Positions 211 through 38,767 of a stretch of 64,000 nt of DNA are shown in pieces. Origin of the DNA: Dirinaria sp. TL-2023a (lineage: Eukaryota); the NCBI GenBank assembly GCA_051941275.1, contig JAVEBF010000004.1, forward strand, positions 1 to 64,000. The letters run 5' to 3'. Position numbers and translations under genes: made by a program. Below the pieces are notes generated by a model. That model was not told the DNA's origin and did not search any database. It worked only from the letters and a program-made list of their open reading frames with translations. Every line of letters starts with the position of its first letter. The first letter of the stretch is position 1.

Positions 211-1125
211 TCATTGATCGGCCTCTGCTCTTTCCCTCCGTCTTTGTTCAACCCACTTACCGAGGACGCTCCAAATCTCTTGCTTTTCATCAGGCCTCAT
301 TCCTGCTGCTAGACCGCTGGTAGTCGTAGCGACGAAAACCTTTGCACCGGGCCACTGATCCTCGCCTTCTGATACGAGGCCCATATTCTCCGATTCATCC
401 TGCCAGCCGTACCTGAATTCGTGCTTCGAGATCTTTTTGCCGTGGCGTACACGCCAGACGCTCTCCCAGATGCTTTTCCCCACAATAGCTACCGCTTCGG
501 GCCTGAATTTCCTGGTCTTCTCCTCGAGCACGGCAACCCCCTCGTCCATCTCTTCTTTGCTCAGCTCACTCGCGTCTTTGGTAGGGCGACTGACGATATT
601 CGTCAGACCCAGAGAGTATAGCTCAGGCATATCGCCATCTTCTTCCGGGCGGCAACGCCGTGGCGTGCAGCCCGAGCTGTGGAGGAGTTTCCAGAACAAG
701 TTCGACGGGTGGTTGTAGGCGTGACCGGTGGTAGCGGTGCGGATCCCGGGATTGACACCGATGAAAACACAGATCAGGCCCGGAGCGAGGGAGTCGGTCA
801 GATTGTTGACGAGGTGAGCGTACTTGCTGGGAGGAGCGTAGCCCTTCCCTTTCGGGGAGAACTGTACAGGCGATTGTTTCAACTTTTTGACAGGGGAGCT
901 ATTTGGAGATAGGAATGTCTCTAATGAAGCTTGATTGGTACGTTTCAAAGAGGTTTTTGGGGCGGCTTGTTGGAGCGGCGTAGCAAGGTTTGAAGCTCGC
1001 GTTAAGCGTCTAGATGTGCCAGACTCCGAGAAAAGGTATTTCGAGAAGGTGTTATTATTGAGTGGAGTAGCATTTTCTGAGCCATTATTTGCACCCAAGG
1101 TCTCTTCCACGTTGTTTGACTCCAT
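211..1125 (-). CDS. G/T(U) mismatch-specific thymine/uracil DNA glycosylase (TDG/MUG family, S. pombe Thp1-like)
   Basis: Single ORF of 304 aa with UDG family-2 motifs FIGVNPG, GHAY..PSNLFWKLLH.SG, GLTNIV.RPT and TTTSGLA. Confidence 0.93.
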   Translation of the reverse strand: MESNNVEETLGANNGSENATPLNNNTFSKYLFSESGTSRRLTRASNLATPLQQAAPKTSLKRTNQASLETFLSPNSSPVKKLKQSPVQFSPKGKGYAPPSKYAHLVNNLTDSLAPGLICVFIGVNPGIRTATTGHAYNHPSNLFWKLLHSSGCTPRRCRPEEDGDMPELYSLGLTNIVSRPTKDASELSKEEMDEGVAVLEEKTRKFRPEAVAIVGKSIWESVWRVRHGKKISKHEFRYGWQDESENMGLVSEGEDQWPGAKVFVATTTSGLAAGMRPDEKQEIWSVLGKWVEQRRRERAEADQ

Positions 1126-1975
1126 TGACGGTCCAATTGAAGAGATTCTGTTACTTTTCGAGAAGGCGGCATCGGCCCAGTGATCTCAGAAATCGCATTC
1201 CATGTTCCCCCTTTCGATAGTAAGATAAGGTACCTTAAGGTAACGCGTTCTTTAACCCTAAGGTACGAGTACTCCTGTTTTTCCCTAGTTTAGGGTTGAG
1301 TCAGACTGCTACCTTATTAAAAGAGAAACTATTTCCCATCTCATTCAACACGACCGAAACAGGTCTGACCGTCTCATATCTTCTTTGCTTTCAGCCTCGC
1401 AATAATAGTACCACAAGACAAAACTATTCTAGTTCACTCTAGCACTCGAGCCGCAAATAAAATAACGCGCAGTGAATAAGTCCCATCCATAGCTTCTGGC
1501 AAGCGAACAGCCTTGACAAGCAAGGTAACGCATTTGACCACTCCATCTCATTTTTTCTGCTCTTGTACCTAGGTCGAGTTCTTCTATATACTGTCAAGAC
1601 CCGCTTTTCCTAACGCTGTTTTGCGGAGTCTCTAAGAACTCTACATGCATTCAATGCAGATGTGCAGCGTTGAAGCCGATAACGCCGTTTTCATCATAAC
1701 ACAAATTTTGGTTCGTTCCAACTTCGATTATGGTCAAGTCTTGATATCGAATTCGCTTATCCAGAGGCGAGATTATTTTGTCTCTGGAGTCGCATCCTGA
1801 CTAGGAACTCGTCGGCGATCTAGCAATTCGAGAGCATCAATCTATCACGTTCCATTGGAGGCAGTACGCAGATTCTACTGTCAGGATTACCCCTATTATA
1901 TACAACATGATACTTCTCGACGACCTCGGACTTTGGTTTTATACGGCGCGCGCACCTAATGCAATCTAATTATAT

Positions 1976-4262: not shown

Positions 4263-4741
4263 AGAGAAAGGGGGGCAGGAAGCTAACCGCTTTCGGACTT
4301 CACAGAGTGTTTTGTCGGGGTGTAAACATGTCTCGGGTAGTAGTTTTTCGAGGTATAAACGCAGTCGCAATAATGCTGCTAGCGCCTGGAAAGTCATTAA
4401 AGAAGAAACACAGGGCAGATCTAACCTCTTTCAGGCTTCACAGAGTGTTCTGTCGGGTTGTAATCGTCCTTCGGGTAGTTTTTCGAGAGACAATCATAGT
4501 CCTAGTGCTGCTAGCGCCGATTAAAATCATAAAGATGGAGGGTAAGGTAAGGTAAGGTAAGGCACCTTACAGCTACCTTACATTAGAGAAAGGGAGGAAT
4601 GAGCTAACCATTTTCAGGCTTCACAGAGTATTCTGTCGGGTTGTAATCGTCCTTCGGGTAGTTTTTCGAGAGTCAATCATAGTCCTAGTGCTGCTGCTAG
4701 CGCCGATTAAAGTCATAAAGATGGAGGGTTAAGGTAAGGTG
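4263..4741 (+). repeat. Three imperfect direct copies of a ~140-160 bp unit
   Basis: Core CTTCACAGAGT.TT.TGTCGGG.TGTAA...TCGGGTAGT...TTTTCGAG...TGCTGCTAGCGCC at ~4298, ~4436 and ~4619. A poly-T run lies upstream at 4081-4104. Confidence 0.9.
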
Positions 4742-5705
4742 AGACATCTTATGTACAGATACCGCAGGGTTTGATTATATGGATTGATTGGTTGGCTGGC
4801 TGGTTGCAGAACACACGCGAATGAATCAAGCGTTCATAAGTAGTTTGAGATCTTATTACAAACCGCGATATTTTCAGAACGAAGCAGAGAGTTGGCTTCT
4901 AGACTAGACCTCCCTTTCTTAACTTTTTTTTGGGTATGAAGGCGTGAGCAAGAAGTATACTTAGGTACTATGGGTAGTTAAGATTACGCACATATGAAAG
5001 GTATTATGATGGACTTAACTGTACGTGATCACATTCCCAAATGAGGCGAGACAAGACTTCTACAGCTCATGAGAGAGATGGTATTATTTCTAGACGAGAT
5101 AACTTTTTTTTACATTGATTTTGTGCCCGTTAATGGATGTTATTTGAGATACCTAGTGTATGGTACTCGTACTCAGCTCTTGAGTAAGGTACGTAGATAG
5201 AAAGGGTTGCAATTTTGCTTCGGATTTTATGTGGATATCTTTGATAAGTACAGTACTTATGCTAGCTCTCTAGGCTCGATCAGCTGTGATGATTGATCAC
5301 GATCGATAGACTTCGGTCTGGGATGGGAAGGAGGGAGGAGGGACTGGGGGGGTGTAGCAGCGTTGGGACGAGGTCACGAATGATACATGTAGTTATACAT
5401 TAAATTGCTTCAAGCAGAGTAAAATCTCGAAGCTACATGTTTTTGGACCGCGGGCTCCATATTCCTCCAATTGAGTAATCGAGGTTGTGAGAGCGGAGAA
5501 AAAGCAAGCAAGCTGGCTATTCCTTTCGGGTTGCGAGAGATTTGTATGCTTTTGACTGGAAAAGGGAGCAACCGATGATTTTTTTCGAATGGTGACAATA
5601 ACAACATGAAGCAAAGTGCAGAGTGGTATAAAACGCTCAAAAATTCGATTGCAAAAAGGAAGAGGAGGGCCTCTCGCCTGACCCTGATGGTCGGCTTAAT
5701 GTAAA

Positions 5706-18512: not shown

Positions 18513-19528
18513 ATGGCAGGAGCAAGAATTGCTTCTGGCATTAGGAGACATGGTCTCACCCCCGGTGCAGTACATATCCGCGTCTTTCCCCGGCCACGAA
18601 ATCTTGCAGAAAGCAGGGAAATCTTGAAGGCTCTAGAGAAGTATGGGGAGATATCCATGTATAAACATCTCAAAGTTCGTGTCCTCACTGCGCTCAAAAC
18701 CCGATCGACACATCACTAGAGAGTTTCTTAGCTGATTTCAGTCTATTCCAGTATGAGCCCATCGCCCCTGCCGCGAATACGATATTAGCCATTTACCAGA
18801 GTCCGCAATCCGCTCAAAAGTTGATCGGCGCTAGTCCTTTACAGCTCAGGCTCGAGCGCAAAGACAGCGGCTGGAAGCATCTTGACCCTGATGGCGCTAG
18901 TGAGGGCAGTAAAGCCGCGAGTGAAGATCAGCTCTTGGTAAGCCGAGAGGAGGCGACCACCGTACCAGCGGAAGCACTAAACGCTGGCGGAGATTCATCT
19001 GGAAGCGACAGTGCTGGCGAGATTTCGGGAAGCCTCGCTCCCAAAGACAATACATTCAAAAACCTAGGTGGAAACAATAAATGGGGCTCCCGGGGCCCTT
19101 CTATCGAGAAAGCATCACCTGTAGAGACCTCGCCACAGCTAAAGACAATGAGACCAGACGCCGAGAAATTAACAGCTCTCCCAATCATCTCATTCCAAAG
19201 CGCTACGCCCCAAACCAATCGACACGGTCAGTCCATCTCTACCAAGTACCGAGAGTACAAACTCGAGATCAGTCCTTCGAACATGAATCACCGGGCCTAT
19301 ATAGCACGGCAATTGTACTACGGGCCCTTCCAACCGGACACGAAAACAATCATGGCGGCGGATCTGGACGGGAGAGTGCCATTGGACGGGATGCTCGACT
19401 GCCACATGGGGAAGGGTGAACGCCCTTTGCGCGAGAGAATACAAATGAAGGACGGTGGCGCGTTCAGATCATTCTCGCTCAAAGAACTGTATGAGAAGAA
19501 GGTTTCAGAAAGCAATGGAAATCTGTAA
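18513..19528 (+). CDS. Fungal hypothetical protein (possibly mitochondrial)
   Basis: Exon 1 VHIRVFPRPRNLAESREILKALEKYGEISMYKHLK joins exon 2 (YEPIAPAANTILAIY...) in phase across a GTTCGT...CCAG intron at ~18675-18751. Confidence 0.75.
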
Positions 19529-20559
19529 TATTCCGCTGGAGTTCATGACGCAGCTACAGCATGTCTTGGCTTAGAGTCGAGAGACACTGCTGAGCTTTTA
19601 GAAAAATACACTCGAATTGAGAGTCGAGTAATCACTGGATGAGCAGCGCAAAGGCATAGCAAGCGGTACAAAGGCTTCCGTCCACTCTACAATAGTATGC
19701 AATTGTCGATCAATCAACCCACAGAAGCACAGCATGTCTTGAATCGATGAAGATATTATCGATTCTTTCTTCCAACCAGGTCTCCTCTGCCATGAGAAGC
19801 GAAAATGTCGTAGCTCGAAGTCGCTTGCGAAATTTAACAAGATGTCACCTTGAGAGTTGAATTTCGAGTGTATAGGCAGCAATAAGAGTTCTCCGCCGGC
19901 CAATATTATTGATGAAGCGGATTGCACCATAGCGATTCTTTGCTATCTATCTATATCTATATCTACTACAGTTTTGACCAAGAATAATCGGGAAGCGAAA
20001 GATAATCCATTCTCAAGGACCACAACTACCTACTGACTAAGCTAGGGATCCATCCCCTGAAGGGCAATCACCCTAGACAGGATCTCAAAATTCAAGAACT
20101 GTGACAAGTTACTCTCCTTGACAGATATGATGAGCTTGTTCCCTGTTCATGATCCAGCATTCTTTGATTCATTTATTTCAATGGTGTTTTCCAGAACGAG
20201 ATTAGCTGGACTCGTCGTTTTCATAATCCTTTTCATAGTGCGTTAAAGGTAGTCGTGTAGGGGTACTGTACTGGACCTCCTCAAGGGCAAGGTGGTTCGA
20301 TGACCACAACTGCTCCAGGCGACTGGTACGAAGACTCAGATTCAGGCCTGGACGCAACCAATACAAAGACCGGCAAGCCCTTGACTGCGAATCCTGAAGG
20401 CAGATAACCCCTGGCACGTTTCACCAAATAAAAGGGTAGGGTGGGAGAGGACTAGCAAGTATACACCTCCGGAGGGTTGTAAGATTGGCCGGTTGGTTAA
20501 GGTACAAAGTTCTGGGGATTGCTAACTATCCCTCAATTATGAGCCAATCCATATTCGGC

Positions 20560-21650
20560 CTAACAGCGTCCAAGGAAACCCATAGTCTGCGTCATAAGGT
20601 AGGAAGCATTTCGTAGAATGGGGTCCAAGATTTCGTCTTCTTTCCGTTCCCAGATGCTAAATCGCAGTGTAATGATCTTGAAAAGTTTGAATGTATCAGC
20701 ATAGAATCGATGACAACAAGAAGTAAAAGCGTCTCAGAAAATCGATGGAGAGATGGAAGATGATTCATCATTTCCTCTCATATACTTCAAGGCATCTGAA
20801 TACTTAACAACCTAACTAAGTCAAGGAATCCAAAGAGCAGCAGAGAGTATGATTTTTAACAGTCTCCGTCATAGGAAGAATTCTGTAGGATAGTATGAAG
20901 GAACTTCTTACTCTCTCTCTCAGAGCGTTCGCAGATTCTAAGATACAATGTAATCATCTTGGAAAGCTCGAAAGCATCCATATAAGTCCGGTGATGATGA
21001 AAATTTGGAGGCGTCTTTTAGCGAGAACAATTAAGATGAAAGTTGATTCTTTCCCAAGAGTCCGAAGGCATTCAAATACTTGACTATCTGCAGTCGCGGA
21101 GCTCAAACGTCGAGCGGATCCTGATAGTATTTCTGAAGCTTAGTATTTAGAGACTTGAAGGGCGTTTTCTTTGAGCGTTCGTCGATGCTAAAATACATCT
21201 TGAACATTCTGAGAAGCTTGAATGCATCCACGTAAGCTCGGTGACATGAAAACCTGAAATTATCTCCTTGAAAAAAATAAAGGGTAAATTCCATACGCAC
21301 TGACCGTAGACCAGAAACGAAAGCAAAGAAAGGAGTGAAATTCCTAATCTCATAGACTTATAGCGGCTTTCAAATCGAACCGTGAAAGGTACAAGATTCC
21401 TTTGGCAGGAACCTCAGCGGTTCTCGGCGATCTGATACAATGTAATGATCTTGAAAAGCTTGAAAGCATCCACGTAAGCTCTGTGATACGGAAATCTGAA
21501 AAGATTTTATCACCAGTAATCAGGTGAACAAGATACTTCCCAAAGACAGAGGAAGTTGTTGCTCCAAGAATAGCTTGATCAGTTGCATGTGATTTGACAC
21601 GAACGAAAGAATCTTCGCTTCTCTGCTTGTAGAGACTAATATCTTCTGAG
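20560..21650 (-). pseudogene. Tandem repeat-domain gene remnant (4 units of ~240-280 bp)
   Basis: Minus-strand translations: HRAYVDAFKLFKIITLY (~21470), HRAYVDAFKLLRMFKMYFSIDER (~21230), HRTYMDAFELSKMITLYLRICER (~20980), HRFYADTFKLFKIITLRFSIWER (~20700). Stops and frameshifts lie between units. Confidence 0.7.
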
Positions 21651-21655
21651 ATCGA

Positions 21656-21786
21656 TATTGGTAACCGGTGGGAAAATGATGATTTTGAAGAAAGATGATT
21701 TCCATTTGACGAGACAATCGTTCTCTAAGTACTACTTGCTGACTAATGAAGTTGTCAAGTCGACCTCAGAGTTTAGAACTCTAACA
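21656..21786. repeat. Direct repeat copy A (~120-130 bp; partner at 24973-25088)
   Basis: TATTGGTAACCGGTGGGAAAA-TGATGATTTTG...GACAATCGT...CTAAGTACTACTT.CTGAC...CTAACA is shared by both copies. Confidence 0.92.
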
Positions 21787-22154
21787 ACTGTCGCTAAAGC
21801 TCAGACAGATGGTCATCAAATATAACGACGCTGATTTTTTTCGCTATCGAGATAGCGATAATTGTAGAACTGACGTGTTTGAATTTTTTCGTTAATGAGA
21901 TGACGTTTTTATTCGTTTCGATAGCATCAACAGTCGAAAAAATGATTGTTAAGATCGTTTTTTGAGACATTGACAAAACTGCTGATGATGAAACGAAAAA
22001 AGCTCGTGATTCCTTCTCTGAATCTCATCCGTCAATGTTGAAATCAGAAATAGATTATTTTCGTTTGAATGAGATCGTGAGTTTTGACATTAAGATCTCT
22101 TTAGTTATCGATTTGTTGCTTTGCTCGTTGAGGTTTTCGTGATAGAGTACGATT

Positions 22155-22294
22155 TATGGTTGGTAAAAAGGTTGTCATTCCTAACTACTGAATGGTCATC
22201 TAAAATACAAGGGCGAAAGGGCGGTTGCCACGGTGACAATTGCCACCGTCCATGGTGGCAAGTACTGCCACTACCAATGGTCCCAGCAACCGCA
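22155..22294. repeat. Direct repeat module 1 containing a palindromic GC-rich element (22221-22293); partner at ~22640-22773
   Basis: AAAAGGTTGTCATT..AACTAC.GAATGGTCAT.TAAA.TACAAG..GCGGTTGCCACGGTGA..TTGCCACCGTCCATGGTGGCAAGTAC...GCAACCGC. Confidence 0.92.
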
Positions 22295-22639
22295 AAATTT
22301 CGAGCTGTTGTGACGAGACGAGATCGTTTAGTTTATAACGATTGATAAGATCGATCTTGATCTTTTTTCTGATCAGATATACCTCTTCCTTCGTGCCTTT
22401 TTGTTCAAGCAGCTGAATATTTCCCATGATTATTGGGTAGCGTAAGTGTCCCTCTCCGTCGAGTATCAATATCGTCTTGTCGTGACCATGGGCATTCTGC
22501 CTTACTCCACCATGTGAGTTAAAACTATCCAGAAATAGCAGCAATGCAATACACACAGTGAAAATTCTGGAGCGAAGTTGACTTGTTGATTCCTATGTTT
22601 AAGAGAATCTGTGAGGAGTCGGATTTGGTAGGGTACTGG

Positions 22640-22773
22640 TTATGGGTGATGAAAAGGTTGTCATTTGCAACTACGGAATGGTCATTTAAATACAAGCGGT
22701 TGCCACGGTGATTGCCACCGTCCATGGTGGCAAGTACTAAGTACCGCCACAACCAATGGTACTGGCAACCGCA
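22640..22773. repeat. Direct repeat module 2 containing a palindromic GC-rich element (22696-22772)
   Basis: GCGGTTGCCA...TGGCAACCGC 10-bp inverted ends and internal hairpin TTGCCACC-GTCCAT-GGTGGCAA. Confidence 0.92.
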
Positions 22774-23124
22774 ACAGGATTTGCCTTCGATGTTCTTCGC
22801 TAGTGACATAGAGTTTGGAGATCGTCAACAAAGCACCAATTATAGTGCTTCTATCAACTGCAATCTTTGATTCAAAACCTTTGGTTGTTTCTAGAATCGT
22901 GTTGACTCTGGCAATCAAGTTGATGAGAAATTTCTTGATCTGCAGTTTGTGATATCTCTTTTTTTGATGATGCTGATATCTTAATTGATTCATCTCGTTC
23001 AGCAACTGCGAGAATAGTTGCTGTCTCATACTTAGGGGGAGGTCATCGATTCGATAGTGAGGTTCATCGAATGCGCTTCGTCACTAAAGATGAAAATTTG
23101 CTGAAGTTTTTCTCTCATGATATT

Positions 23125-23574
23125 TCAAAATGTCTTTTGAGATAGTGCTTCGTTTTTGTCGAGCGAGATTTCATACGCTTTGCCGTCTTCAGTATTGATT
23201 GTGTAGGGTAGAGTAAAGCAGAAAAATTCGACTTCTTTCTGCTTTAGATGGGGCCTGCAGTAGATATTGCTGGGCGATGTCTCAGATTGAAAATCTAGGG
23301 ATAGATCTCTCTTCGTCTCGCTCTTGAGTTTTTTTCTTGAAATTTTGGTTGAATCTTCTATGACGTTTTTCGCCCTCTTCTTGCTCTTGCTTGCAGTGGC
23401 TGCTGTCACTGGCGTGTTTTTCTTCTTGGGCACACCGCCCTCTTTTCTGCTTCGGCCACTCGCTTGACCCCCTAACTTCCCTGCCATGACCTTCTTGGGA
23501 TTACTTTCGAGTGAGCTCTTCGAATGTCTGCCCATGATCGATGATTGCGGACAAGATACGTCGCTCATGTTCAT
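23125..23574 (-). CDS. Lys-rich hypothetical ORF in the island (may be a truncated pseudogene)
   Basis: 149 aa, very basic, contains AGKLGGQASGRSRK; ends at a TGA that could be a mutated TGG. Confidence 0.4.
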   Translation of the reverse strand: MNMSDVSCPQSSIMGRHSKSSLESNPKKVMAGKLGGQASGRSRKEGGVPKKKNTPVTAATASKSKKRAKNVIEDSTKISRKKLKSETKRDLSLDFQSETSPSNIYCRPHLKQKEVEFFCFTLPYTINTEDGKAYEISLDKNEALSQKTF

Positions 23575-24299
23575 CGAGTATACAGATCTCCGTCAAGAGT
23601 TCTTTGCTGGATCGATTCATAAATCCACAGTCGATGAAAAAGCAGCGGTAAGACGATTCAGTCTCTGAAAACGATGAATCGAGATTAGCTAACATATGAG
23701 AAAGTCATCCTCATTGAGTTGAACTAAAGGTGTGACTCCCCGCACGCAATCCTGCATCGTCGAAGAGTCAAGAATCCCCGCTGCTGGTCCTTCGGTTTTC
23801 TGTTGTCTATTGGATGTGTAATACATCATTTTGCCACTTCTCCAAGAGACACAATACGCAGTTGGGACCGGATCCTAAACAATCTGTTGCTGGTGAATAC
23901 TTGAGCAATGTGTTCTCCTCCGTTTTCGAGAAGGTCCAGTATGGGCGTGACGGTTTTCCAGCACCTCTTCCTAAACAAGGCGATTGTCTGTGACTGCCGA
24001 ACTTGTCAGCAGATATAATCCAGAGGCAGAGTAATGTTTAAGGGCCGTACTCACAAATGTGAGCTTGTTTGCTGCCTCCTACCAACACAAGAGGCCATAA
24101 TCTCCGTCTCAGCGGAGTCAGCTTAGGAAAGCCTGAACAGTGGAGAGTATCTGACGAGCTTTATCATTGTGAGTACAGTGATTATCACGCGATGTCGAAT
24201 AAATTGTCATGGAATGACAAGAATGCTGAAAAAGAGAGGAAATTCTTGCTTTTGCGACTATGAATCTATGGTCCTCTTAATACATGCTGGCGTCACCGC

Positions 24300-24900
24300 A
24301 AGGACGTCTCGATGAAAAAAGCTCCAGTGCAGCAAGGAGGCAAAAAAGGATGGTACCAGCGAATCGTTGCATTCATATTCGATCTAAATATGTCAGTTTG
24401 ACATGATGAGAGGATTGAACAAGCAAATAGGCAGTCTCCGTGTTTTCTAGCATCTGCAGCCATCAATCGTCCCAAGAACGAAATATCTTGTTCAAATAGT
24501 CCATACTGGCTTTTCGATCCAACAGATCTAGATTTCCGCTCTAGATTCTCGCCTTTTGACAACTCCTCTCGAATGGGTTCGTCCATTTGTCGATAATTGG
24601 AGAGCCAATCTAGCAATTTGTTCTTTAATCTGTCCTCAGCAGTCGTTCGCACCCTGCACACTTGACGCGACATAGTTTTGTTGATATGTCTTTGCATGTC
24701 GTATCCACTGCAATATTATGGTCATTGAGATCACAAGCCTTTGGAATCAAGAAACAGATAAAGCATCTCCATATCTTCCAGTTGCATTCGCAACCGTCAA
24801 GGATTCCGCGAGTCAAATATATTCGTGACACTCGATTGACATTTTCAAGCACGACTCTTGATATCTCTCGATAATCGCACCTTTTCATGAAAGTTAGGAA
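24300..24900 (-). pseudogene. Zinc-finger gene remnant, paralog 2
   Basis: NWKIWRCFICF...LNDH...TCKDISTKLCRVKCAGCERLL followed by in-frame stops; aligns with the 26.6-26.75 kb segment. Confidence 0.65.
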
Positions 24901-24972
24901 TATCTAGGTTATCGAGTCGATCGAGGTAGTCGTTTAGCAATTGAAAATAATCCTTACTTTTTCCATTCATTC

Positions 24973-25088
24973 TATTGGTAACCGGTGGGAAAAATGATGA
25001 TTTTGGAGGAAGATGGTTTCCATTTGGCGGGACAATCGTCCCCTAAGTACTACTTACTGACCCGGCCCCAGGGTCGAGGACCCTAACA
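24973..25088. repeat. Direct repeat copy B (GC-richer, less mutated partner of 21656-21786)
   Basis: Same core as copy A but retains GG/CC dinucleotides. Confidence 0.92.
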
Positions 25089-26104
25089 CATACATTGAAC
25101 CTGCGTAAGACTCATTCGAGCTTTTGTCAAAGACGTTGTACTTGTCAGTAGACAACAATTCAATGTTCACAATGAATATAAAGTATAACAAAATGATACT
25201 AAAAGGATCAATGAAAAATTTCAATCGTGAGCGTAGAGGATGCACCGTCCAATGGACATAGTAGTTGATCGAAACAATGAACCAGAAGTCTTGCTTCAAC
25301 TAATTTTTAATTTTTCAAATCTCCACTGGTGAGACGTCCCGAGCAATAGAGAGGGAGGCTCGCTCGGGTGGAATCGTAAATATCAGGAAGAACATAAATG
25401 CTTCGACAAGAAGAGGAAGAAAAATTTGACAGAAGAGCTGTCTTTCAAAAAGCCTTAGCGCCTTTCTTAACACCAAAATCATTTCACGAGGAAAGGGAAA
25501 AAAGAACTTGGACTTATGCAGATTCTTGAACTTGACGGTCGTCAGGATGAAGATATGACAAACAAAATCTGATCGATTATCTCCTAGCATTCCATTTTTG
25601 CGTCTGGCGGAATCGTCAATTTATCTTATGATATTAGACTCAATGACAAATTATCAACAATGGCAATATCAAACCTGGTAATCTGTCGACATCTTTAAAA
25701 CAATGACAGTTGCATCAGCGAACATCCGGTTCATGATCTCGAAATTAAGCTATGTCTTTCATGCGATGATTTTGTTCAGTTTTGGTCACCGATAGCGGAG
25801 TTCAAGTTCTAATCTTCCATGTCCTCATCTAGGACGTGCGGGAACTTAAGACTGTCAGTCATACCTTAAAAAAGTTCGTAAATGTTAGATCTCTGTCGAG
25901 AGCTGCGAGCCCATATCAAGGACGATAGTGTCAAACATGATAATCCAGAGCGAGTTTTGAAGATAATTAGTCGCTCACCCTTTGAGATCCATAACAGTCT
26001 AAGATAGAAGATGCGGATCATAATTTTGGTGGTTCCGCATTGAACCAAACAGAAGAAACATTGGTTATCGACTGTACCATAAGCCGACTTTATATAGTAC
26101 TAAC

Positions 26105-27737
26105 CTATTAGCATCTGTTCAATTCAATATTGATCTTTGTTCTGTTCCATAAGAGAGGCATTCTTTCATCCAATATCTTTCAACTCTCACGAATGAGATC
26201 TTACATAGATTTCTTGCTGCTCGAGGAAAAACAACATTCCTGAACTTCCAATTCTGATCCAGCTATAAGCTCTCTGAATGTGATGTGGATGATTTTGGAT
26301 TCTTGCGCAGTTTACTTTAATTTTAATTTATTCTTGACAGCATGAACGTTCTCACGAGAACAGGAGTCTTGACAAAATCAGTCTTTCGAGGCTTCAGCTT
26401 AATGAAGTAATGAGGAGTTTCTTTTCTTTTCTTGAGTAATTGAGCTGAAGTTTGAATAGGTCGTGTAGAGCACAACGGTTCGTCGTTTTTCAGAGACATG
26501 ATTGGGCATTGGATCAACCCAGATGTCGTGTCATCTTGTCCCGATCAGCGTTGGCCCATAAGTCATTGTGTGGGCAAGCGAGTCAATGCATTGCCCAATT
26601 CCCTGTGTCTAGCAGTTTCTCACATCCTGGACACTTCACAGAACACAAGTACTTGAAGATGTTTTTACATGTGGCACCGCCGAAGTTGAAATGCTCTTGA
26701 AGAGTTCTGACAGTGTCGAAACAGTCGAAACAGGTGTAACATCTATACAGCCATCAATTAATTAACCCAGTCTTGTCCAATTTTCGCGAACCCTTTTCTG
26801 CATGTTGTGATGATCAAAACTTGGGCTCTTATTTTCCTTGACATAGCACTGATGTGAAATAAAACAATGTTGAGTCTCGACTGCACCGTGCGCTGACTTC
26901 ATGTGATTTTTTTCATCTGCCCTGTTTTGAAGCTCACTCATGCAGACATAGCTGACAATCTGTTGCTCGGTCGTACGGTAGATATTCATCTCGAAGTTCT
27001 CGAGAAATGTTCCGAATATGTTTCAGCATTCGTGTACTTTGATTCTCATAGTGATTGCAAGCAATCGACGAACATTTGAATGGATGAAAAGTTGACTGAG
27101 TTGAAAAACTTATCGTCTCGCTGTAACTGTCTCTAGTCAGTTGCTGAGTTCTGGTGGTCTGTCAGTGGTCGAATCCAATTCTGAGGTATATGCGGCCATC
27201 TACACGCCAGGCGCATAATACCGGTCTACACTCTTTGAATGCATCATATAACTGAAGATACAGTGCTGTGTGCAAAAACCTCCAACTCAAAACGCGTTTC
27301 AGCCTCAAGTAGACAAGGTAGATCGATGTAAAGCAAGTTACTGAGTACTGAAGATTGCCAGATCACAGCTCGAACAGTTTCATGGATTGTTCCACCCGGG
27401 GCGAGTACCTCTGGTTTCCACAGAGGCTCTGACATTGTCGAAAGACTTGTTGACCTGGATACAGAACAAGACGAGAGATTTTATAATGGCTGAAAACTTT
27501 GATTAGTAGGATCGCTTCGAGGGATGGATTCGAAATAATCCAATATCGTATATGATAGACTGATTGCGTCAAGTAAGCCCAGTTGACGATTTTGAATCCT
27601 TGCAAAGATGTACTTAGCTTCTGCCTTTGCACGTGAAACTCACCGCGGTGAACTCATCTTGAAAAAATCACGAGCATCTTCAAATTCTTCAAAAGACGTG
27701 TAATCTTTTCAAGTCTTCCAATTAAAGCCGCACGCAT
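26105..27737 (-). pseudogene. Multi-exon zinc-finger gene remnant, paralog 1
   Basis: ATG at 27737 and phase-consistent GTGAGT...GCTAAG...AAG intron at ~27599-27643. Long frame 27120-26105 with HPFKCSSIACNHY..MLKH and WLYRCYTCFDCF..LQEH...TCKNIFKYLCSVKCPGCEKLL, interrupted mostly by TGA. Confidence 0.68.
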
Positions 27738-27969
27738 TCTAGATCCCGCGGCCCACTGCCTGTATTCTATGGCATTCGAAAATATGTGTCATGATTAGTA
27801 AGAGAAATATGGTCGTTCTAAATAGATATATTGTATAGGTAAAATAGAAGATAGAGAAAGACCGATCTAGGATATAAAATTAGCTCAGTCGTCTTGATCT
27901 ATCAGGTAGACTGTTTTGAGAAACCCGCCACAGTAATTGTGGTATTGTACGACACGGGCAGATTGATCA

Positions 27970-30400
27970 TTTAGTACGCAGAGCGTAAAATCATCACGAT
28001 GATATCTCGACTCGAATGAAGTCCCAAGATCGACGATGTCAGTCTAAAAATGAGTTGAGAGTAAATTGAGAGACTAAAATGAGAGGAATCGATATACAGC
28101 ACTCTTCGTACATGCACAATCGGGCGTCTCCATTTCTAGCTTCGTCAGAGGCATGGAAACACGCAGTCAAGGACCTGTGAGCCAAGATGCATCCTCCGGG
28201 AGACGACCCCAGTGGGCTGTCCTTGTGATATGTCGCATCCGTTGGATGTATTGTGTCTCTCTCGACGAATGAAGACCGTTCTCCGTCAAGGGTTTTTCCA
28301 GTCCTCGGGGCGTGCGTGAAAGGGAACCATTGTGCCATCTTCCAAATATCGATAATGGCCTGAGTCAACGGGCAACACTCATGACTCAAAGTCTTCGATG
28401 TGCTGTAACTTGTAAGCATCAACGATATTCACGTTGCTCTCTACGAATCAACTGCTCTCTGAGATACAGATTAATTCAGTGATTGAGTCTTAATTAAGAT
28501 TGCATCATCCTCTCACTCAGTTAGCAATGAAGATCTGAGCTCACTGACAACACCCACGATTTTTTATTCTTGAATGAAGACATCGACCATTGAGAAATCA
28601 ACGAGAATCTGTACCATCCTTCGAAGCATTGATCTTCATCATCTGTACTTCTTCGTTCGGTCTTCGCTTCTCGACGTTGTGTGTGCAGAATGATTCTGAG
28701 CGAGTCTGATTTCGCAAAACAAACACCTATTCGTTTAGAACTAAAATGTTCGTGATGATCCATCATATTACAAGACATTCCATGTGTATAATGTGGGCCT
28801 GGTAGCAACCAAGTTGTGCATCAGGGCAGGCGATCTGAAATTATCACCCTCCCTTAGCTGAAGTATGATAATGTTAATACTTTGTCTCTTGCAGCTAGCG
28901 GAATGAGCAACAAGTCCCAGGTTAGTCTTGTATACTCTGTTAGCGTTCTGTTTATGAACCGCAGAGCTATACCAAAGATGCCGCAGCTGTGATGGCGCCT
29001 GCCGCCTTTGGTGGGGCCTTCAAGTTATTGCTCGCTGTATTGCTGTCATTAATTCATATTCCAGTGCATCTTCCGCTGCGGAATTGCTATACAAACTACA
29101 TGCTCAATAGGCAGTATCTTAGAAGGTCCAATACACGGGAGTCTTTTGCGGTGTTTTTGAGCTTGAACTCGATAATTCAATGTGTACTTCATGTCGGCTT
29201 TCGTCAAAGTAGTATATTGGTGTCGAGAATCTGACGTTCCCGAGCATCTTTGTGAAGCTTGGTGGTGGACCATTTCAGCTAACTTCACGCTTGCGATAGT
29301 ACTGTGAAATAGTTCAGCACATACCCAACCATAGAATTAGCCAAGATTGGCATGTCTATTTGCCGAAGCTAGAACAGGTGAAACATCGAGACCTACCACC
29401 TTGTATATATACTTTAAATAGTTGTTGGGTTTGGACAAGTTCAGTCAACATATGTCGAGTGTTTGCTAAAGCGCGGGTTTTTGGATTCTGCATCAAATCG
29501 AGTTTTTCTAGATGTTGCGGAACCAGTAGAGATTAATTGAGAAAAAGCCCATCTGTCTTTCGAACTCGAAGCACAATTGAAAATTGCGATAAATCCGCGA
29601 CCTTGAAACAACAGACTTGATAGAGCGCACTGTGCTTTTCATCAGTACATCGCAAGTCTCGTCGCATGCCTTTTGAGATGAGCGCATTGAGTGCTATCTG
29701 GAAAAGAAGTCAATGGGACATCTGTGATTGCTTCAAGACATCTAAAAATGTCATATATTCATTTTTCCGAAGAAATTTACAAGTCTCAGTTTCACCTTTC
29801 ATGTCCGCGCTCGAATGCTTCGCGTCGATTCGATTCTGAACGTTCGATCTGTACTGCTGTCAAATTTGTTTAAACTTCTGCAATCTCTCGAAAACCTGTC
29901 TTGTGCCATTGAGCATTTCCTACTTACCAAATCCAAGAGATATTGCCTGAATGTAAGCTTTTGAGCTTTATGAGCAAAGGCGCCCCAGCTGTAGCTATCG
30001 AAGTAAGCATGAATTTTTTGAATAAGCACTTCTATTGCCAGTAGCTCCGTTGCCGGTTTTAAGCAGGGATACACTATCTACGGTGTCGAGTCGAATCGAG
30101 TCTACATTTGTAGAGCAAATGCTGGGTTTGTATCGGTGTGTTGCAGCTGAGGGATTAGAGGTGGTTTTGTCACTGGAAGGGTCTGCAGCGTTTAAGAGAA
30201 ATCGGCATTTCTGAGTTGGTCCCAAAATTGGACGCTGAGTCCAACATATAGATATCTTTTTCGTATACAAGATTTATTGCTCCATAGGTCTTGCAAAGGA
30301 TTCACCTTGATTATAGAGGACCTAAAAACCATATTAACATTCCAAGTATGCGCAGCATGGTGTAGTGAAGTCAAACTCGTATTTGAGAAGAGCATTCGAG
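27970..30400 (-). pseudogene. Large decayed multi-exon gene of unknown family (may extend to ~31570)
   Basis: Frames can be joined across short candidate introns (~40-50 nt) into a long protein-like sequence (e.g. AAEDALEYELMTAIQRAIT*RPHQRRQAPSQLRHL*LTWDLLLIPLAARDK) with scattered stops, many of them TGA. Confidence 0.45.
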
Positions 30401-32023
30401 ACTCATGAACGAGGCCAGGACGAGACTCCCAGTCCCATGCCGTAATAGTTGAGAGTCCAATATATACGAGGCGGTCCTAGCTGCACATCAACTCGGCATT
30501 CTTTACACTTGATAATAAGGTAATCATACGTACTAATTAGCCTCTCCACTAAAGACGTTTGGCGGACGTATGAGACGATTTAGGAGGTTGGGGAAGGAGT
30601 AAAAGAAAAGAAACAATAGCTATAGTATCACCTTCTCATAAAAAGCAACTTGTTCTATCTCGCTCTAGGAGCTGTAGTATTGTAGGTACTCCTCTTACCT
30701 CTTGTCCTTAGTACATATCTCCAAGTCTAGACTTCAGACTTCAAATGAATCACCAGGGCTCAATTTGACAGACAGTAAAGATGGGTGAAGGCTATCCAAG
30801 CTGTGATATCTGAATGATCAGAGACATTCAGCAGGGTAGGAGTGTCATGTTTGAAGGATATATCTAGGAAGGTAGGAGAGTGTGACAGTTCTAGCAGCAA
30901 AGAATGTGCTTTAGAAAGCCAGTCTGTCGCGAAGTATTGCTGCGTCTCAATTACATATCCTCTTATCGAATCCAAGAACCTATGGTTTTGTGGAATGAAA
31001 GAGGCTTCGCCGAGATCAATGATAATAGTATCACTAAGTGTTGTTGATAAGGTGACCTGTAAAGAATTCATCCACAACGCAATATGAAAAAAAAGTTCAC
31101 TAAGAATTCTTAGAAATACAGCAATGTCTTTTCATTGTAAAGAAAATACTCTGATTACCCTGGTAAGTCGACACTCAGGCATTTCGTGTTCACTTAGCAT
31201 CTATCACCGAGGATGCATCGGCAGTCGCAAGAAATGATTGTAGGAAGCCCATGACGAAATCTAGAGTCATCTGAAAGCTCGAAGGCCAAAGGAGGACTTG
31301 GTGAGGACAAGGATTTGGGAATGAGGGAATGCTCATCTTCGCTGGATGCAAGCCTTTTGCCCTGTCTCCGATCCTGCTTGCCTATTGGATTTCGGTTTCC
31401 AACTTGAAATGATCCTCCCCTTCTAAGCATGGAAAGATTGATGTTGGCAGCCGGTCGTGACCGTAAGCTTCCAGATTATGTGGCCTCGTAGGCTTCACAG
31501 AAGCAGCCGATGCCACTTCTAGATCGTTCAGCCTTTCGCAGGCAGCCATATGAGTAACGGTAGTCATAATCTAATTATTAGACGACAACTTAATTTGGTG
31601 CTGCGAGAAGAAGGGGCGAGATAGGTGAATATCAATAGGACCAGAAACTCGAATGTCTCCGGACACGTTCCCACTTCCACCTTTAGGTTGCCTGAACCTC
31701 CTCTATTCAAGAGCTCACCTGCAAGTCATGAATTGCCATTTGAAAGACAATCAGGAAGCATTCTTCATTTGTCTCACTCTACCGCCTAATTTTCATGGAG
31801 CTTACCTCCAATCCTTGACGCTCAAGGCTCACTAAGTTGATATCTATGCTTATGAGCCATCTTCCAACTTCCCCTCGTAGTAAGGCTATTTACGCAAACT
31901 TGTCCAGCTCTATCGGAATTGAGCGAGAGAAAGTCGACCGGGTATCTCAGGAACGCTAAGGCGCCAATGGTTACTACCTAATCAGCAGTACAGTAGAAAT
32001 ACTCGAATGCTAGTAATCCCAAG

Positions 32024-33562
32024 TCACCGCTCATCGCTTCCGTCCTCTGAAGACGCTTCTTCCTGTGTCGTCATCCGCTGGTTCTTCGCCTGCTCTGGAC
32101 TTCGTGAGCGCCTTGAGTCGCTCGAACCCCGCTTCAAAGGGCCAGCAGGAGCATTAGTCAAAGTCGGAGTATTTGACTGACTCCCATGGTGCATCACCGA
32201 TGGTGGTGGTGGTCCAGATTGAAATTTGTGCGGGTAAGGATTCAGATCCTTGCTACTTGTGGAGAAAGTACTGACGATTGGCGGACGTTTCTCTTTTCTC
32301 CCATTACCGTTACTTTGTTCCCCGCTTTGCGAAGGTACAATCGCGGAATTTGGGTCGGGTGTGACGGGCGACCCAGAATTCTCTTCTTCATTGAGCTCTT
32401 CGTTGAGGGATATCCACCCACCTTCGATATCTCGTAATAATCGAACATATTCTTCAGGGACGAGTCCTGATTCACCGGTCTTGGGATCCTCAGCCACCAA
32501 CCAGCCTTGGCCATGTCGGTATGAAACCCATATCACTTGACCTTCAACAAGTGGAAGTTCGTTTTCGTTCTCTCGTGCAAAGTCGAAGAGAGCAACAGCT
32601 TTGCCATGCATTTCTTCATCTGGTGAAGCAATTGTGAATTGGTAGTCCTTTGAGTACCGAGATTCATCCATTTGGTTTGGCATATCCGAGTCTTCGCCAG
32701 AGTCTTCCTCTTCATCCGAATCGTTGTATCTTCGGCTGGGGAGCGTCGCGGCGAAGTGAGAATCTCTTTGGCCAGGCGCATGATATTTGTCTGGTGCAAG
32801 CGTAGACAGCCTCGATTGATCGGATGAGTAGGCCACAATCCCAGCGCCTACATCATGGCTACCTTCGTCCCCGGCTCCGGTGTGAGCATATCCGGTCCGG
32901 CCCCCATTTGCAGCTGCAAAATAATCGTCTTCGTCTTCGGCGTCCCCAGGACTCCGACCTCTGCCTGTACCCGGTGTTCCACCTGCGGCTGGGTAGCCAG
33001 ATTTATGTTTCTTGCGCCTCGAACTCACAACCACCGGGCTATGAAGATCCTCATCCTCGCTATACGGTGGGCCGTCTCTATATGCCATTTGCGGTAGCTG
33101 TTGATGCGAGGCAGATCCATCTCCAATCCCTGGCCCTGCTTGCCACGAGGAGCCGGCTGCCTCCCACGTAGTGCCGGGCGCATCTGATAGTCTCCGTTGA
33201 TACTCACTCTGGGGTGTAGACGTCCCAGATTGTAGGGCTGGAGGCTCTGCAGGAGGTCCGTAGTGGTTAGGATGCACTATTGGATATGCAAAGTCTCGTA
33301 CGAGGGCGTATGGAAGGCTTGAATGGAAGTGCGGAAAGGCATATGATTGTGGTCGTGAGCGGTTCGCAGCGCTATTGGAATTGGTCGAGTATGAGGACAT
33401 GCGATTCTTTGCGTACGAGGGTGGACGTGGGTGTGGCGACCGTCGGGTGTTTTGGTTGGTATTTAACGGAGGTAGATGAGCAAGATTCGGGTTCGATGGC
33501 GGACTTTGCGGGTGGCGAGGTGAGGAGGTCCTTGAAGGGGATGCTGACAGCACAGCTGTCAT
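32024..33562 (-). CDS. NBP2: SH3-domain adaptor Nbp2 (HOG pathway/Ptc1 adaptor)
   Basis: SLPYALVRDFAYP motif plus SH3 domain GKAVALFDFARENENELPLVEGQVIWVSYRHGQGWLVAED..GESGLVPEEYV. Confidence 0.85.
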   Translation of the reverse strand: MTAVLSASPSRTSSPRHPQSPPSNPNLAHLPPLNTNQNTRRSPHPRPPSYAKNRMSSYSTNSNSAANRSRPQSYAFPHFHSSLPYALVRDFAYPIVHPNHYGPPAEPPALQSGTSTPQSEYQRRLSDAPGTTWEAAGSSWQAGPGIGDGSASHQQLPQMAYRDGPPYSEDEDLHSPVVVSSRRKKHKSGYPAAGGTPGTGRGRSPGDAEDEDDYFAAANGGRTGYAHTGAGDEGSHDVGAGIVAYSSDQSRLSTLAPDKYHAPGQRDSHFAATLPSRRYNDSDEEEDSGEDSDMPNQMDESRYSKDYQFTIASPDEEMHGKAVALFDFARENENELPLVEGQVIWVSYRHGQGWLVAEDPKTGESGLVPEEYVRLLRDIEGGWISLNEELNEEENSGSPVTPDPNSAIVPSQSGEQSNGNGRKEKRPPIVSTFSTSSKDLNPYPHKFQSGPPPPSVMHHGSQSNTPTLTNAPAGPLKRGSSDSRRSRSPEQAKNQRMTTQEEASSEDGSDER

Positions 33563-37887: not shown

Positions 37888-38767
37888 CGACTTGCTTCGG
37901 GGCAGTACACATGCGACAGTACACATGCCTTATTTCCGACCACCAGCCACCAATCTAGCCACCCCCACCCCACCTACATAGTTCCTCACCGTCGCCTCAA
38001 TTGTGTGCACATTATCTTATTGTTTGAGATTTTTCTATGCTTTCGACGCTCTGGCATTTGTGTTATGGGTTTTCCTCTGGTTTTTCCTATGATTTTGACA
38101 CTAGGTAGGTTCTATTGCATTTTGGCTCTGGCCTAGCCATTTTACTTCTATGACTTTGCACCATGCACTTGGCGCATACTGCAACAATGACGAAAAGCTA
38201 TGGAGCATGTTATGGATCAAATGGTGGGCCAAATATAATGACAATATCTATAAAATAGATGTTCAAAATAAGCTAATAATAATGGCGATGCCCTGAAAAA
38301 TCTGAGTGCAATCGCCTGCTAATTACACCATGTCTGCTCCATAGTTTTTCGTTATTGTTGCAGTATGCGCCAAGTGCATGACTCAAAGTCATAGAAGTAA
38401 AAGAGCTGGGTCAGAGCCAAAATGTCATAGAATCTACCTAGTGTCAAAATCATAGAAAGAACCACAGGAAAACTCATAACAGTATATGTGCGCAATATAG
38501 TACTCTGTGAACTACTGCTGCAGAGAACTGTTTTTGAATTTTGAAGAAAGCAATTTGAGACGACGAGAACTCTCTTACAGATGCAACTCATGATCATATA
38601 TCAAGTTGAAAATGCTTCTGTTTGACTGCTTGTTATCACTGTATAGGCATAGGCATAGAGATCAATAGTCCATTGATGAGTGCAGTGAGCTTGGCATGCG
38701 GCTGTGGCTAGGTAGCCGGAAATAAGACATGTGTACTGTCGCATGTGTACTACCCCGAAGCAAGTCG
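37888..38767. mobile_element. Non-autonomous foldback/MITE DNA transposon, Mutator-like by TSD length
   Basis: 51-bp TIRs (37888-37938 / 38717-38767, 2 mismatches); perfect 9-bp TSD AAAGAGCTG (37879-37887 / 38768-38776); internal ~147-bp inverted repeats (38061-38207 / 38335-38481); no ORF. Confidence 0.92.

What the first reader, a model, noticed from the sequence alone, without database searches (positions are those of the whole stretch)
21656..25088. RIP-like hypermutation targeting CpC rather than CpA
Seen: hand alignment of repeat copies 21656-21786 and 24973-25088 gives about 16 substitutions, of which about 12-13 are GG->GA or CC->TC, all in one direction. Examples: TTGGAGGA->TTGAAGAA, ATGGTT->ATGATT, TGGCGGG->TGACGAG, TCCCCT->TTCTCT, GACCCT->AACTCT. 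On both strands this is C->T at a C followed by C. Established: canonical Neurospora RIP prefers CpA, and context varies among ascomycetes. Inference: this genome (or the island's donor) has a RID/DNMT-dependent or deaminase-type defence with CpC specificity that standard TpA/ApT RIP indices would miss.
Basis: partly seen in the sequence, partly recalled or inferred. Interest (0 to 1): 0.78.

Follow-up and report, generated by a model that had tools for sequence, protein, structure and literature searches.

The report
CpC-biased C-to-T hypermutation in fungal island
In this lichen-type fungus, a short duplicated stretch and the 9.5-kb gene-poor island around it have lost cytosines mainly where a C is followed by another C, a footprint like the fungal genome defence called RIP but with a sequence preference opposite to the known one.

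Summary
Copies 21656-21786 (A) and 24973-25088 (B) differ by 16 transitions and 3 transversions. Thirteen of the 16 transitions are C>T at a C followed by C. That is 13 of 20 CpC sites against 3 of 39 other C sites (p=7e-6), and all 13 have the C/G in copy B.

The signal is not limited to this pair. The index (TC+GA)/(CC+GG) exceeds 2 only in 20.5-30 kb of the window, while the standard RIP indices stay normal there. Simulations need a 3-10-fold CpC preference to reproduce the island's dinucleotide profile. Five other repeat pairs, pooled, show a weaker CpC excess (17/66 vs 25/203, p=0.018).

The host is a Pezizomycotina fungus near the Lecanoromycetes. The island holds decayed genes and local duplications, and no recognisable transposon.

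Not shown: that the process is induced by repeats, which enzyme does it, or that it acts genome-wide. No genome or reads could be obtained.

Best reading, at 0.45: a RIP-like mutator of double-stranded DNA with a CpC preference. I found no CpC-dominant RIP in print.

The parts
21656..21786 (+). Repeat copy A, the mutated copy. It carries T/A at 14 of the 16 transition sites.
24973..25088 (+). Repeat copy B, which is close to the unmutated state. It keeps C/G at all 13 CpC-type sites.
20501..30000 (.). Low-GC island (0.42) with CC/GG depleted (O/E 0.77) and TC/GA enriched (O/E 1.31) on both strands. TpA is not enriched and CpG is not depleted. The index fades out by about 31 kb.
20584..21600 (+). 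Diverged tandem array D1: 4 units of about 250-280 nt, directly left of copy A. Together with A it forms the window's highest index value (3.64 at 21001-22000).
22140..22295 (+). GC- and CC-rich structured repeat R2a. It is paired with 22626-22774 and is little affected by the CpC signature (4 of 21 CpC sites differ).
22626..22774 (+). Structured repeat R2b (fold z-score -5.0).
22682..23592 (-). Decayed gene with a weak ubiquitin-like C-terminal part. It is broken by stops and frame changes.
24397..24849 (-). Relic of a Cys-rich (C2H2-like, my reading of the motif) gene. It is a paralogue of 26370-26822.
26370..26822 (-). Paralogous Cys-rich relic. All 6 in-frame stops are TGA.

Best explanation
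A RIP-like mutator that acts on double-stranded DNA converted C to T (G to A on the other strand) mainly where the C is followed by C. It hit a ~9.5-kb block of locally duplicated, now decayed genes in a Pezizomycotina fungus near the Lecanoromycetes. Copy A lies next to a 1-kb tandem array in the most heavily hit kilobase and was driven close to saturation. Copy B lies in the least affected 500 bases of the island and largely escaped.

Shown: the transitions, their CpC context, their direction, that both strands are hit, the extent of the island, and that the CpA/TpA footprint is absent.

Inferred: that duplication triggered the process, and that the enzyme is of the DNA-methyltransferase type (RID or DIM-2-like). 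The second inference rests on the specificity being on the 3' neighbour, as in RIP and DNMTs. The ssDNA cytidine deaminases I recall read the 5' neighbour instead.
For: Repeat pair. 13 of 16 transitions are at CpC, 13 of 20 CpC sites are changed against 3 of 39 other C sites (p=6.7e-6), and 14 of 16 are polarised towards copy A. The transition:transversion count is 16:3. Runs end in states with no target left (CCCC>TCTC, GGG>GAG).

Island index. In 1-kb windows, (TC+GA)/(CC+GG) is 1.49-3.64 in 10 island windows and 0.83-1.83 in 51 others (Mann-Whitney p=9.5e-7; GC-adjusted p=3.7e-5). The matching CpA, CpG and CpT indices are not raised.

Island against noncoding flanks. The T/C ratio is 2.37 vs 1.31 before C, 0.74 vs 0.85 before A, 1.66 vs 1.56 before G and 1.41 vs 1.11 before T.

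Strands. Both are affected in nearly every 500-nt block.

Simulations. Forward simulations from three baselines fit best with a CpC weight of 3, 4 and about 10, and always fit better than context-free decay. A CpA-only model fits far worse.

Other repeats. Five independent pairs pooled give CpC 17/66 against other contexts 25/203, odds ratio 2.5, p=0.018.

Related fungi. In GC-matched windows from about 1 Mb of related fungal DNA the median index is 1.50, the maximum 2.52, and 8 of 66 reach 2. In the island 8 of 10 windows reach 2.16.

Duplications. The island holds several local duplications that could act as triggers.
Against: Only one repeat pair shows CpC dominance. None of the five other pairs is individually significant.

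The units of the D1 tandem array differ by transitions in every context: 6 of 33 polymorphic columns are CpC. Saturation of CpC sites could hide the signal there, but I did not show that it does.

The A/B repeat (about 115-130 nt) and the CC-rich R2 pair (about 150 nt, 4 of 21 CpC sites changed) are, as far as I recall, shorter than what Neurospora RIP detects. The pair itself is therefore unlikely to be the trigger.

I cannot show that the island is repeated elsewhere. Its one called protein has no paralogue in 1.84 billion representatives and sits in a cluster of one.

The compositional inference depends on the assumed ancestral composition. From a coding-like start, context-free decay is only moderately worse (KL x1000 4.8 vs 1.0).

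The first 33 bases of the repeat keep all their CC/GG sites.

No DNMT or deaminase gene could be examined.
Confidence: 0.45

Rival explanations
1. Context-biased decay that is not induced by repeats. The island is a silenced, perhaps methylated, stretch of dead genes, and spontaneous or methylation-linked deamination with a CpC bias slowly eroded it. Copy A simply sits in the older or more exposed part.
For: The whole 9.5 kb is affected, not only the detectable repeats. The island-wide fit needs only a 3-10-fold CpC bias. Repeats outside the island also show a mild CpC excess, as a general mutational bias would give. No evidence of copies elsewhere was found.
Against: In the pair, 65% of CpC sites changed against 8% of other C sites, with at most 3 transversions. 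That implies a bias of about 10-fold or more and a burst, not slow decay. Other low-GC noncoding stretches in the window lack the signature (index 1.06-1.83). CpG is not depleted in the island (O/E 0.96).
Confidence: 0.25
2. Chance plus an unusual intrinsic composition. The island has a different origin or an odd sequence make-up, and the pair is a small-sample outlier.
For: There is only one strongly biased pair. In GC-matched fungal DNA, 8 of 66 windows also reach an index of 2. The model depends on the baseline.
Against: The pair gives p=6.7e-6. Direction, context and local composition agree: copy A lies in the 500-nt block with the fewest CC/GG and copy B in the block with the lowest index inside the island. 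In the window the index stays at 2 or more for 11 consecutive 1-kb windows stepped by 500 nt. The longest such run in a comparator that is not an AT-rich genome is 3.
Confidence: 0.12
3. A single-strand cytidine deaminase (APOBEC-like or toxin-derived) edited exposed ssDNA or retroelement cDNA.
For: Clustered C>T hypermutation close to saturation is what such enzymes produce (established knowledge, recalled).
Against: G>A and C>T changes are interleaved within 100 nt. The specificity is on the 3' neighbour and the 5' neighbour varies (C6 T4 G2 A1). No reverse transcriptase or other transposon domain appears in six frames of the island.
Confidence: 0.1
4. Reverse polarity: copy B gained C/G (T>C at TpC, A>G at GpA), for example through an edited RNA intermediate or biased gene conversion.
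For: There is no outgroup copy, so the polarity of the pair alone is inferred.
Against: The island as a whole is CC-poor and TC-rich compared with both coding and noncoding flanks, and copy B's surroundings look like the flanks. Both strands are affected. A 5' G is the context ADAR-type editing disfavours, and fungi lack ADARs (both recalled).
Confidence: 0.03

Closest known systems
Repeat-induced point mutation (RIP) of Neurospora crassa and other Pezizomycotina
   Same: C:G to T:A transitions that approach saturation. Both strands are hit. The specificity is set by the base 3' of the C. It occurs in a filamentous ascomycete, in a gene-poor AT-enriched block that holds duplications and dead genes.
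   Different: The preferred context is CpC. Published orders place CpC last: N. crassa CpA>CpT>CpG>CpC, and CpC is also last in T. reesei (PMC5496416, passage read). Other ascomycetes are CpA-dominant (passages read in PMC2621366, PMC5555474, PMC4522978). TpA is not enriched and the Margolin indices are normal. GC falls only to about 0.42. Dependence on repeats is not shown.
RIP-like hypermutation of basidiomycetes (CpG, and TpCpG in Pucciniomycotina)
   Same: A non-CpA context for C>T hypermutation of repeats (PMC4014442, passage read).
   Different: Here CpG is spared: 1 of 9 sites in the pair (the single TCG), and CG O/E is 0.96 in the island. The host is an ascomycete.
APOBEC3G-type editing (GG>AG on the plus strand)
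   Same: Hypermutation at CC dinucleotides.
   Different: APOBEC3G deaminates the 3' C of CC on one strand, which gives GG>AG (recalled). Here the 5' C of CC changes (GG>GA), on both strands.
CpS-depleted AT-rich block in a more distant fungus (L050:1-900)
   Same: Strong CC/GG depletion (O/E 0.32) with high CA/TG (1.41) and no TpA excess.
   Different: CpG is also gone completely (O/E 0.00) and GC is 0.30. The ROK1 gene on that contig is only 52% identical to the window's. It is a single block at a contig end.

Membership tests
RIP (canonical, Neurospora type) | The mutations are almost only C:G>T:A transitions | tested here: met
   16 transitions against 3 transversions in the pair, with 14 of 16 polarised
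RIP (canonical, Neurospora type) | Preference for CpA, leaving a TpA excess (TA/AT >0.89 and (CA+TG)/(AC+GT) <1.03) | tested here: not met
   CpA 2/14 against CpC 13/20. Island TA/AT is 0.53-0.73, the substrate index is 1.16-1.50 and TA O/E is 0.61. The thresholds are as quoted in the PMC3897900 passage.
RIP (canonical, Neurospora type) | Confined to duplicated DNA and its close flanks | tested here: inconclusive
   The island holds a tandem array, three repeat pairs and a diverged paralogue pair, but most of the 9.5 kb has no detectable partner in the window. No genome was available for a wider search.
RIP (canonical, Neurospora type) | Both strands of the duplex are mutated | tested here: met
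   G>A and C>T are interleaved in the pair. TC/CC and GA/GG are both raised in nearly all 500-nt blocks.
RIP (canonical, Neurospora type) | RID and/or DIM-2 cytosine methyltransferase homologue in the genome; premeiotic timing | not testable with these tools
   No genome is held. None of the 24 long ORFs scanned is a DNMT.
Basidiomycete TpCpG / CpG hypermutation | C>T concentrated at CpG (TCG) | tested here: not met
   1 of 16 transitions is at TCG, 1 of 9 CpG sites changed, and island CG O/E is 0.96
AID/APOBEC-type ssDNA editing | Strand-coordinated clusters and specificity for the 5' neighbour | tested here: not met
   The strands are interleaved. The 5' neighbours are C6 T4 G2 A1, while the 3' neighbour is C in 13 of 16.
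UV dipyrimidine signature | C>T at TpC and CpC, which depletes TC | tested here: not met
   TC is enriched (O/E 1.31). The effect is confined to one island.

The most novel reading that the evidence does not exclude
A lineage of lichen-type ascomycetes runs a RIP-like genome defence whose enzyme prefers CpC, the context ranked last in Neurospora. It leaves moderately AT-enriched, CC-poor and TC-rich relics that every standard RIP index scores as negative. Surveys of RIP across Ascomycota would then under-call it, and the dinucleotide specificity of RID- or DIM-2-type enzymes would be far more evolvable than assumed.
Probability: 0.3. Interest if true: 0.75.

Novelty: new variant of a known kind. 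Interest (0 to 1): 0.55.

Why it matters
RIP is usually detected through its CpA>TpA footprint. A CpC-preferring form would be invisible to the TpA/ApT and (CpA+TpG)/(ApC+GpT) indices used in genome surveys. 'RIP-negative' calls in poorly studied classes such as lichen-forming fungi could then be wrong. Natural variants of the mutator with a different 3'-neighbour specificity would also help to work out how RID- and DIM-2-type enzymes choose their targets. The RIPCAL paper already defines a (CpC+GpG)/(TpC+GpA) index (PMC2621366, passage read), so the whole assembly could be tested quickly.

Tried and rejected
Whole genome: none is held.

Public sequencing runs for 20500-26500: none was listed.

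Earlier notes of this scan: nothing for this genome, this sequence or these words. The 'RIP lichen' look-up returned only findings from other genomes that do not bear on this one.

Metagenome pattern scan for further copies of the repeat, with transition-tolerant IUPAC codes: 0 matches.

Transposon identity of the island: no credible Pfam hit in 31 ORFs or in six frames read through with X (one search failed because of the stop codons).

Homologues: ORF 24293-24715(-) has none, and the X-read relic P0125 has none. ORF 23125-23592(-) matches only itself and, weakly, polyubiquitins.

RNA genes and simple repeats: no Rfam family and no tRNA in the window; TRF on 19000-32500 found only a 29-nt tandem repeat.

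Hidden repeats: a purine/pyrimidine-collapsed self-search found no further partners. tblastx added one old paralogue pair, too diverged (about 55% DNA identity) for context counts.

D1 tandem array: majority-rule polarisation gave mostly apparent A>G and T>C singletons. An unpolarised count showed no CpC bias (6 of 33).

Stop-codon test: 6 of 6 in-frame stops are TGA in relic 26370-26822. TGA is already 51-54% of stop triplets in the island, so this is not independent evidence (p about 0.02-0.03).

UV damage, CpG methylation decay, TpCpG and ADAR-like editing: considered and rejected on context.

LTR reading of the pair: by eye I saw no primer-binding site, polypurine tract or target-site duplication next to either copy, and there is no retroelement domain.

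Failed scripts: one search timed out and crashed on a zero count. One search is the corrected run.
Full report
**1. What the window is.** The long ORFs encode ordinary eukaryotic proteins: C2/SMP lipid-transfer proteins, an MFS transporter, an SH3 protein, PPP4R2, a RING finger protein, Ada3, a Ras-family GTPase, Het-C, a glycosyl hydrolase, Ies4 and a UDG-superfamily protein. The DEAD-box helicase at 46933-49152(-) is a ROK1 orthologue. Every named relative among the 120 listed hits is a lichen-forming Lecanoromycete, at 55-59% identity; the best unnamed hit is 74%. Against nine named Lecanoromycete ROK1 proteins, the loci most similar to the window (L001 and L038, 64%) score 56-60%. The host is therefore a Pezizomycotina fungus near or within the Lecanoromycetes. 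The contig is 68,454 nt long. No whole genome is held.

**2. The observation.** The two copies are a genuine direct repeat. The global alignment has 100 identities, 16 transitions, 3 transversions, a 1-nt indel and a 16-nt indel. One transition and two transversions fall at the ragged 3' end.

Changed sites out of all C/G sites, by the base 3' of the C:

- CpA 2/14
- CpC 13/20
- CpG 1/9
- CpT 0/16

The Fisher test of CpC against the rest gives an odds ratio of 22 and p=6.7e-6. Copy B holds the C/G at 14 of the 16 transitions, including all 13 CpC-type ones. The 5' neighbours vary (C6, T4, G2, A1). G>A and C>T changes alternate along the repeat, so both strands were hit. Runs end in states with no target left (CCCC>TCTC, GGG>GAG). 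One oddity remains: the first 33 aligned bases are identical although they hold several CC/GG sites.

**3. The signal goes beyond the pair.**

- *Sliding index.* (TC+GA)/(CC+GG) exceeds 2 only between 20.5 and 30 kb. It peaks at 3.64 (21001-22000, which holds copy A and the tandem array D1) and at 3.33 (25501-26500). Elsewhere it is 0.8-1.8, including in other low-GC stretches.
- *Non-overlapping 1-kb windows.* The index is 1.49-3.64 in 10 island windows and 0.83-1.83 in 51 others (p=9.5e-7). After dividing by (1-GC)/GC the medians are 1.73 and 1.24 (p=3.7e-5). The matching indices for CpA, CpG and CpT are not raised.
- *Strands.* TC/CC and GA/GG are both raised in nearly every 500-nt block. 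The block holding copy A is the most extreme (7 CC and 7 GG in 500 nt), and the block holding the tail of copy B has the lowest index inside the island.
- *Against noncoding-like flanks.* The excess of T over C is concentrated before C (2.37 vs 1.31). It is smaller before T (1.41 vs 1.11), absent before G (1.66 vs 1.56) and reversed before A (0.74 vs 0.85). O/E is 0.77 vs 0.97 for CC, 1.31 vs 1.09 for TC, and 0.61 for TA in the island.
- *Standard RIP indices.* They are normal in the island.

**4. How far the compositional argument depends on the model.** I mutated copies of the flanks in silico until they reached the island's GC content.

- From noncoding-like flanks, a CpC-only model fits the island's dinucleotide profile best among single contexts (KL x1000: 4.4, against 8.8 for context-free, 15 for CpT and 38 for CpA).
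- From long-ORF flanks, CpC-only overshoots and context-free fits better.
- With a graded CpC weight, the best fit is 3 (long-ORF start), 4 (all flanks) and about 10 (noncoding start). In each case it beats weight 1.

The island therefore supports a CpC preference of roughly 3-10-fold whatever the starting composition. The exact value is uncertain. The pair implies about 10-fold or more.

**5. Replication inside the window.** None of the other repeat pairs is significant alone. Pooling five independent pairs, three of them outside the island, gives CpC 17/66, CpA 13/88, CpG 4/43 and CpT 8/72. CpC against the rest has an odds ratio of 2.5 and p=0.018. I left the pair 4263/4585 out of the pool because it overlaps 4418/4601, and I used only one D1 pair. 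The four D1 units differ by transitions in all contexts (6 CpC among 33 polymorphic columns), so D1 does not support CpC specificity.

**6. Comparison with related DNA.** A ROK1 alignment retrieved 80 fungal loci, about 1 Mb, from metagenome contigs.

- In GC-matched 1-kb windows (GC 0.38-0.46, n=66) the median index is 1.50 and the maximum 2.52. Eight windows reach 2, four of them from one AT-rich genome (L075). In the island, 8 of 10 windows reach 2.16.
- L060 carries a textbook canonical RIP block (TA/AT 2.2; CA O/E 0.33).
- L005 and L007 have a mild CpC-type block of about 1 kb.
- L050:1-900, from a more distant fungus, has CC O/E 0.32 and CG O/E 0.00 with CA/TG at 1.41.

Non-CpA footprints therefore exist elsewhere in this sample of fungi. 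I did not analyse them further.

**7. What the island is.** It has no Pfam domain in any ORF or in six read-through frames, no Rfam family and no tRNA. It holds:

- the D1 array;
- the A/B pair;
- a CC-rich, strongly folding repeat pair R2;
- a decayed gene with a weak ubiquitin-like part;
- two old paralogous Cys-rich relics.

It looks like a block of locally duplicated, dead genes, not a recognisable transposon. I found no evidence of copies elsewhere, but hypermutated copies would rarely be called as genes.

**8. Mechanism.** Several features match RIP in everything except the dinucleotide: near-saturation, an almost pure transition spectrum, both strands hit, specificity on the 3' neighbour, and a setting in a duplicated gene-poor block of a filamentous ascomycete. 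Copy A is probably mutated because it lies within 150 nt of the 1-kb tandem array. RIP is known to spread into flanking DNA; that rests on the PMC4014442 passage and on recall. The 115-nt A/B homology itself is probably too short to be the trigger, as the little-affected 150-nt R2 pair also suggests. Repeat dependence and the enzyme are inferences. The rivals are listed with their odds in their own section.

**9. Literature.** I read passages only, not whole papers.

- N. crassa RIP prefers CpA>CpT>CpG>CpC, and T. reesei also puts CpC last (PMC5496416).
- CpA dominates in S. nodorum, in rDNA pseudogenes and in M. graminicola (PMC2621366, PMC5555474, PMC4522978).
- Some CpC decline accompanies CpA-dominant RIP (PMC5737583, PMC8959702).
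- The lichen fungus Endocarpon shows canonical indices (PMC3897900).
- Basidiomycetes show CpG and TpCpG (PMC4014442).

Five full-text searches turned up no report of CpC-dominant RIP. Clutterbuck 2011, the broadest survey of contexts, is not in the library and I could not read it. Supplementary tables were not consulted.

**10. Verdict.** This is a real CpC-biased C>T hypermutation footprint that covers about 9.5 kb and that the standard RIP indices miss. Whether it is a repeat-induced defence operating genome-wide remains open and needs the full assembly.

Noticed in passing
window 22140-22295 and 22626-22774: A GC- and CC-rich repeat pair with nested stems sits inside the CC-poor island. 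22690-22780(+) folds at -41.2 kcal/mol, z=-5.0, and 0 of 200 shuffles fold as well. It could be a MITE-like or structured-RNA element. It is largely untouched by the CpC signature, so it may be younger than the mutagenesis or may escape it.
   Followed up: partly
L050:1-900: An AT-rich block (GC 0.30) at a contig end in a more distant fungus has CpG O/E 0.00, CC O/E 0.32, CA/TG 1.41 and TA 0.84. This is a C>T footprint at CpG plus CpC, again the opposite of canonical RIP.
   Followed up: partly
L060:16800-18500: A textbook canonical RIP block in another fungus of the same collection: TA/AT about 2.2, CA O/E 0.33, TA O/E 1.68.
   Followed up: no
L005:5001-6000 and L007:5001-6000: A mild CpC-type block (index 2.5, CC O/E 0.81, TC O/E 1.40, TA/AT 0.66) lies 4-5 kb upstream of ROK1 in a relative at 58% identity.
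   Followed up: no
window 21656-21688 / 24973-25006: The first 33 aligned bases of the repeat are identical in both copies although they hold several CC/GG sites, whereas about two thirds of the CpC sites further on are changed. The cause could be constraint, later conversion, or the edge of a tract. The stretch is followed by ATGATG.
   Followed up: no
window 26370-26822 (-) and 24397-24849 (-): Two old paralogous relics carry a Cys-rich, C2H2-like motif. In the first, all 6 in-frame stops are TGA, which is the only stop that GG>GA can create from TGG. TGA is, however, already about half of all stop triplets in the island.
   Followed up: partly
window 22682-23592 (-): A decayed gene whose C-terminal part weakly matches polyubiquitins (E 1e-6 to 1e-4). 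Its called 136-aa product is a singleton cluster.
   Followed up: partly
window 38061-38481 and 37888-37950 / 38704-38767: A 420-nt imperfect palindrome nested inside a second inverted-repeat pair, in a low-GC intergenic stretch.
   Followed up: no
window 4263-4751: About three diverged tandem units of roughly 150-185 nt in an intergenic region.
   Followed up: no
window 211-1185 (-): A gene of the uracil-DNA glycosylase superfamily (Pfam UDG, E 9e-17). I mention it only because it belongs to deamination repair; nothing links it to the island.
   Followed up: no
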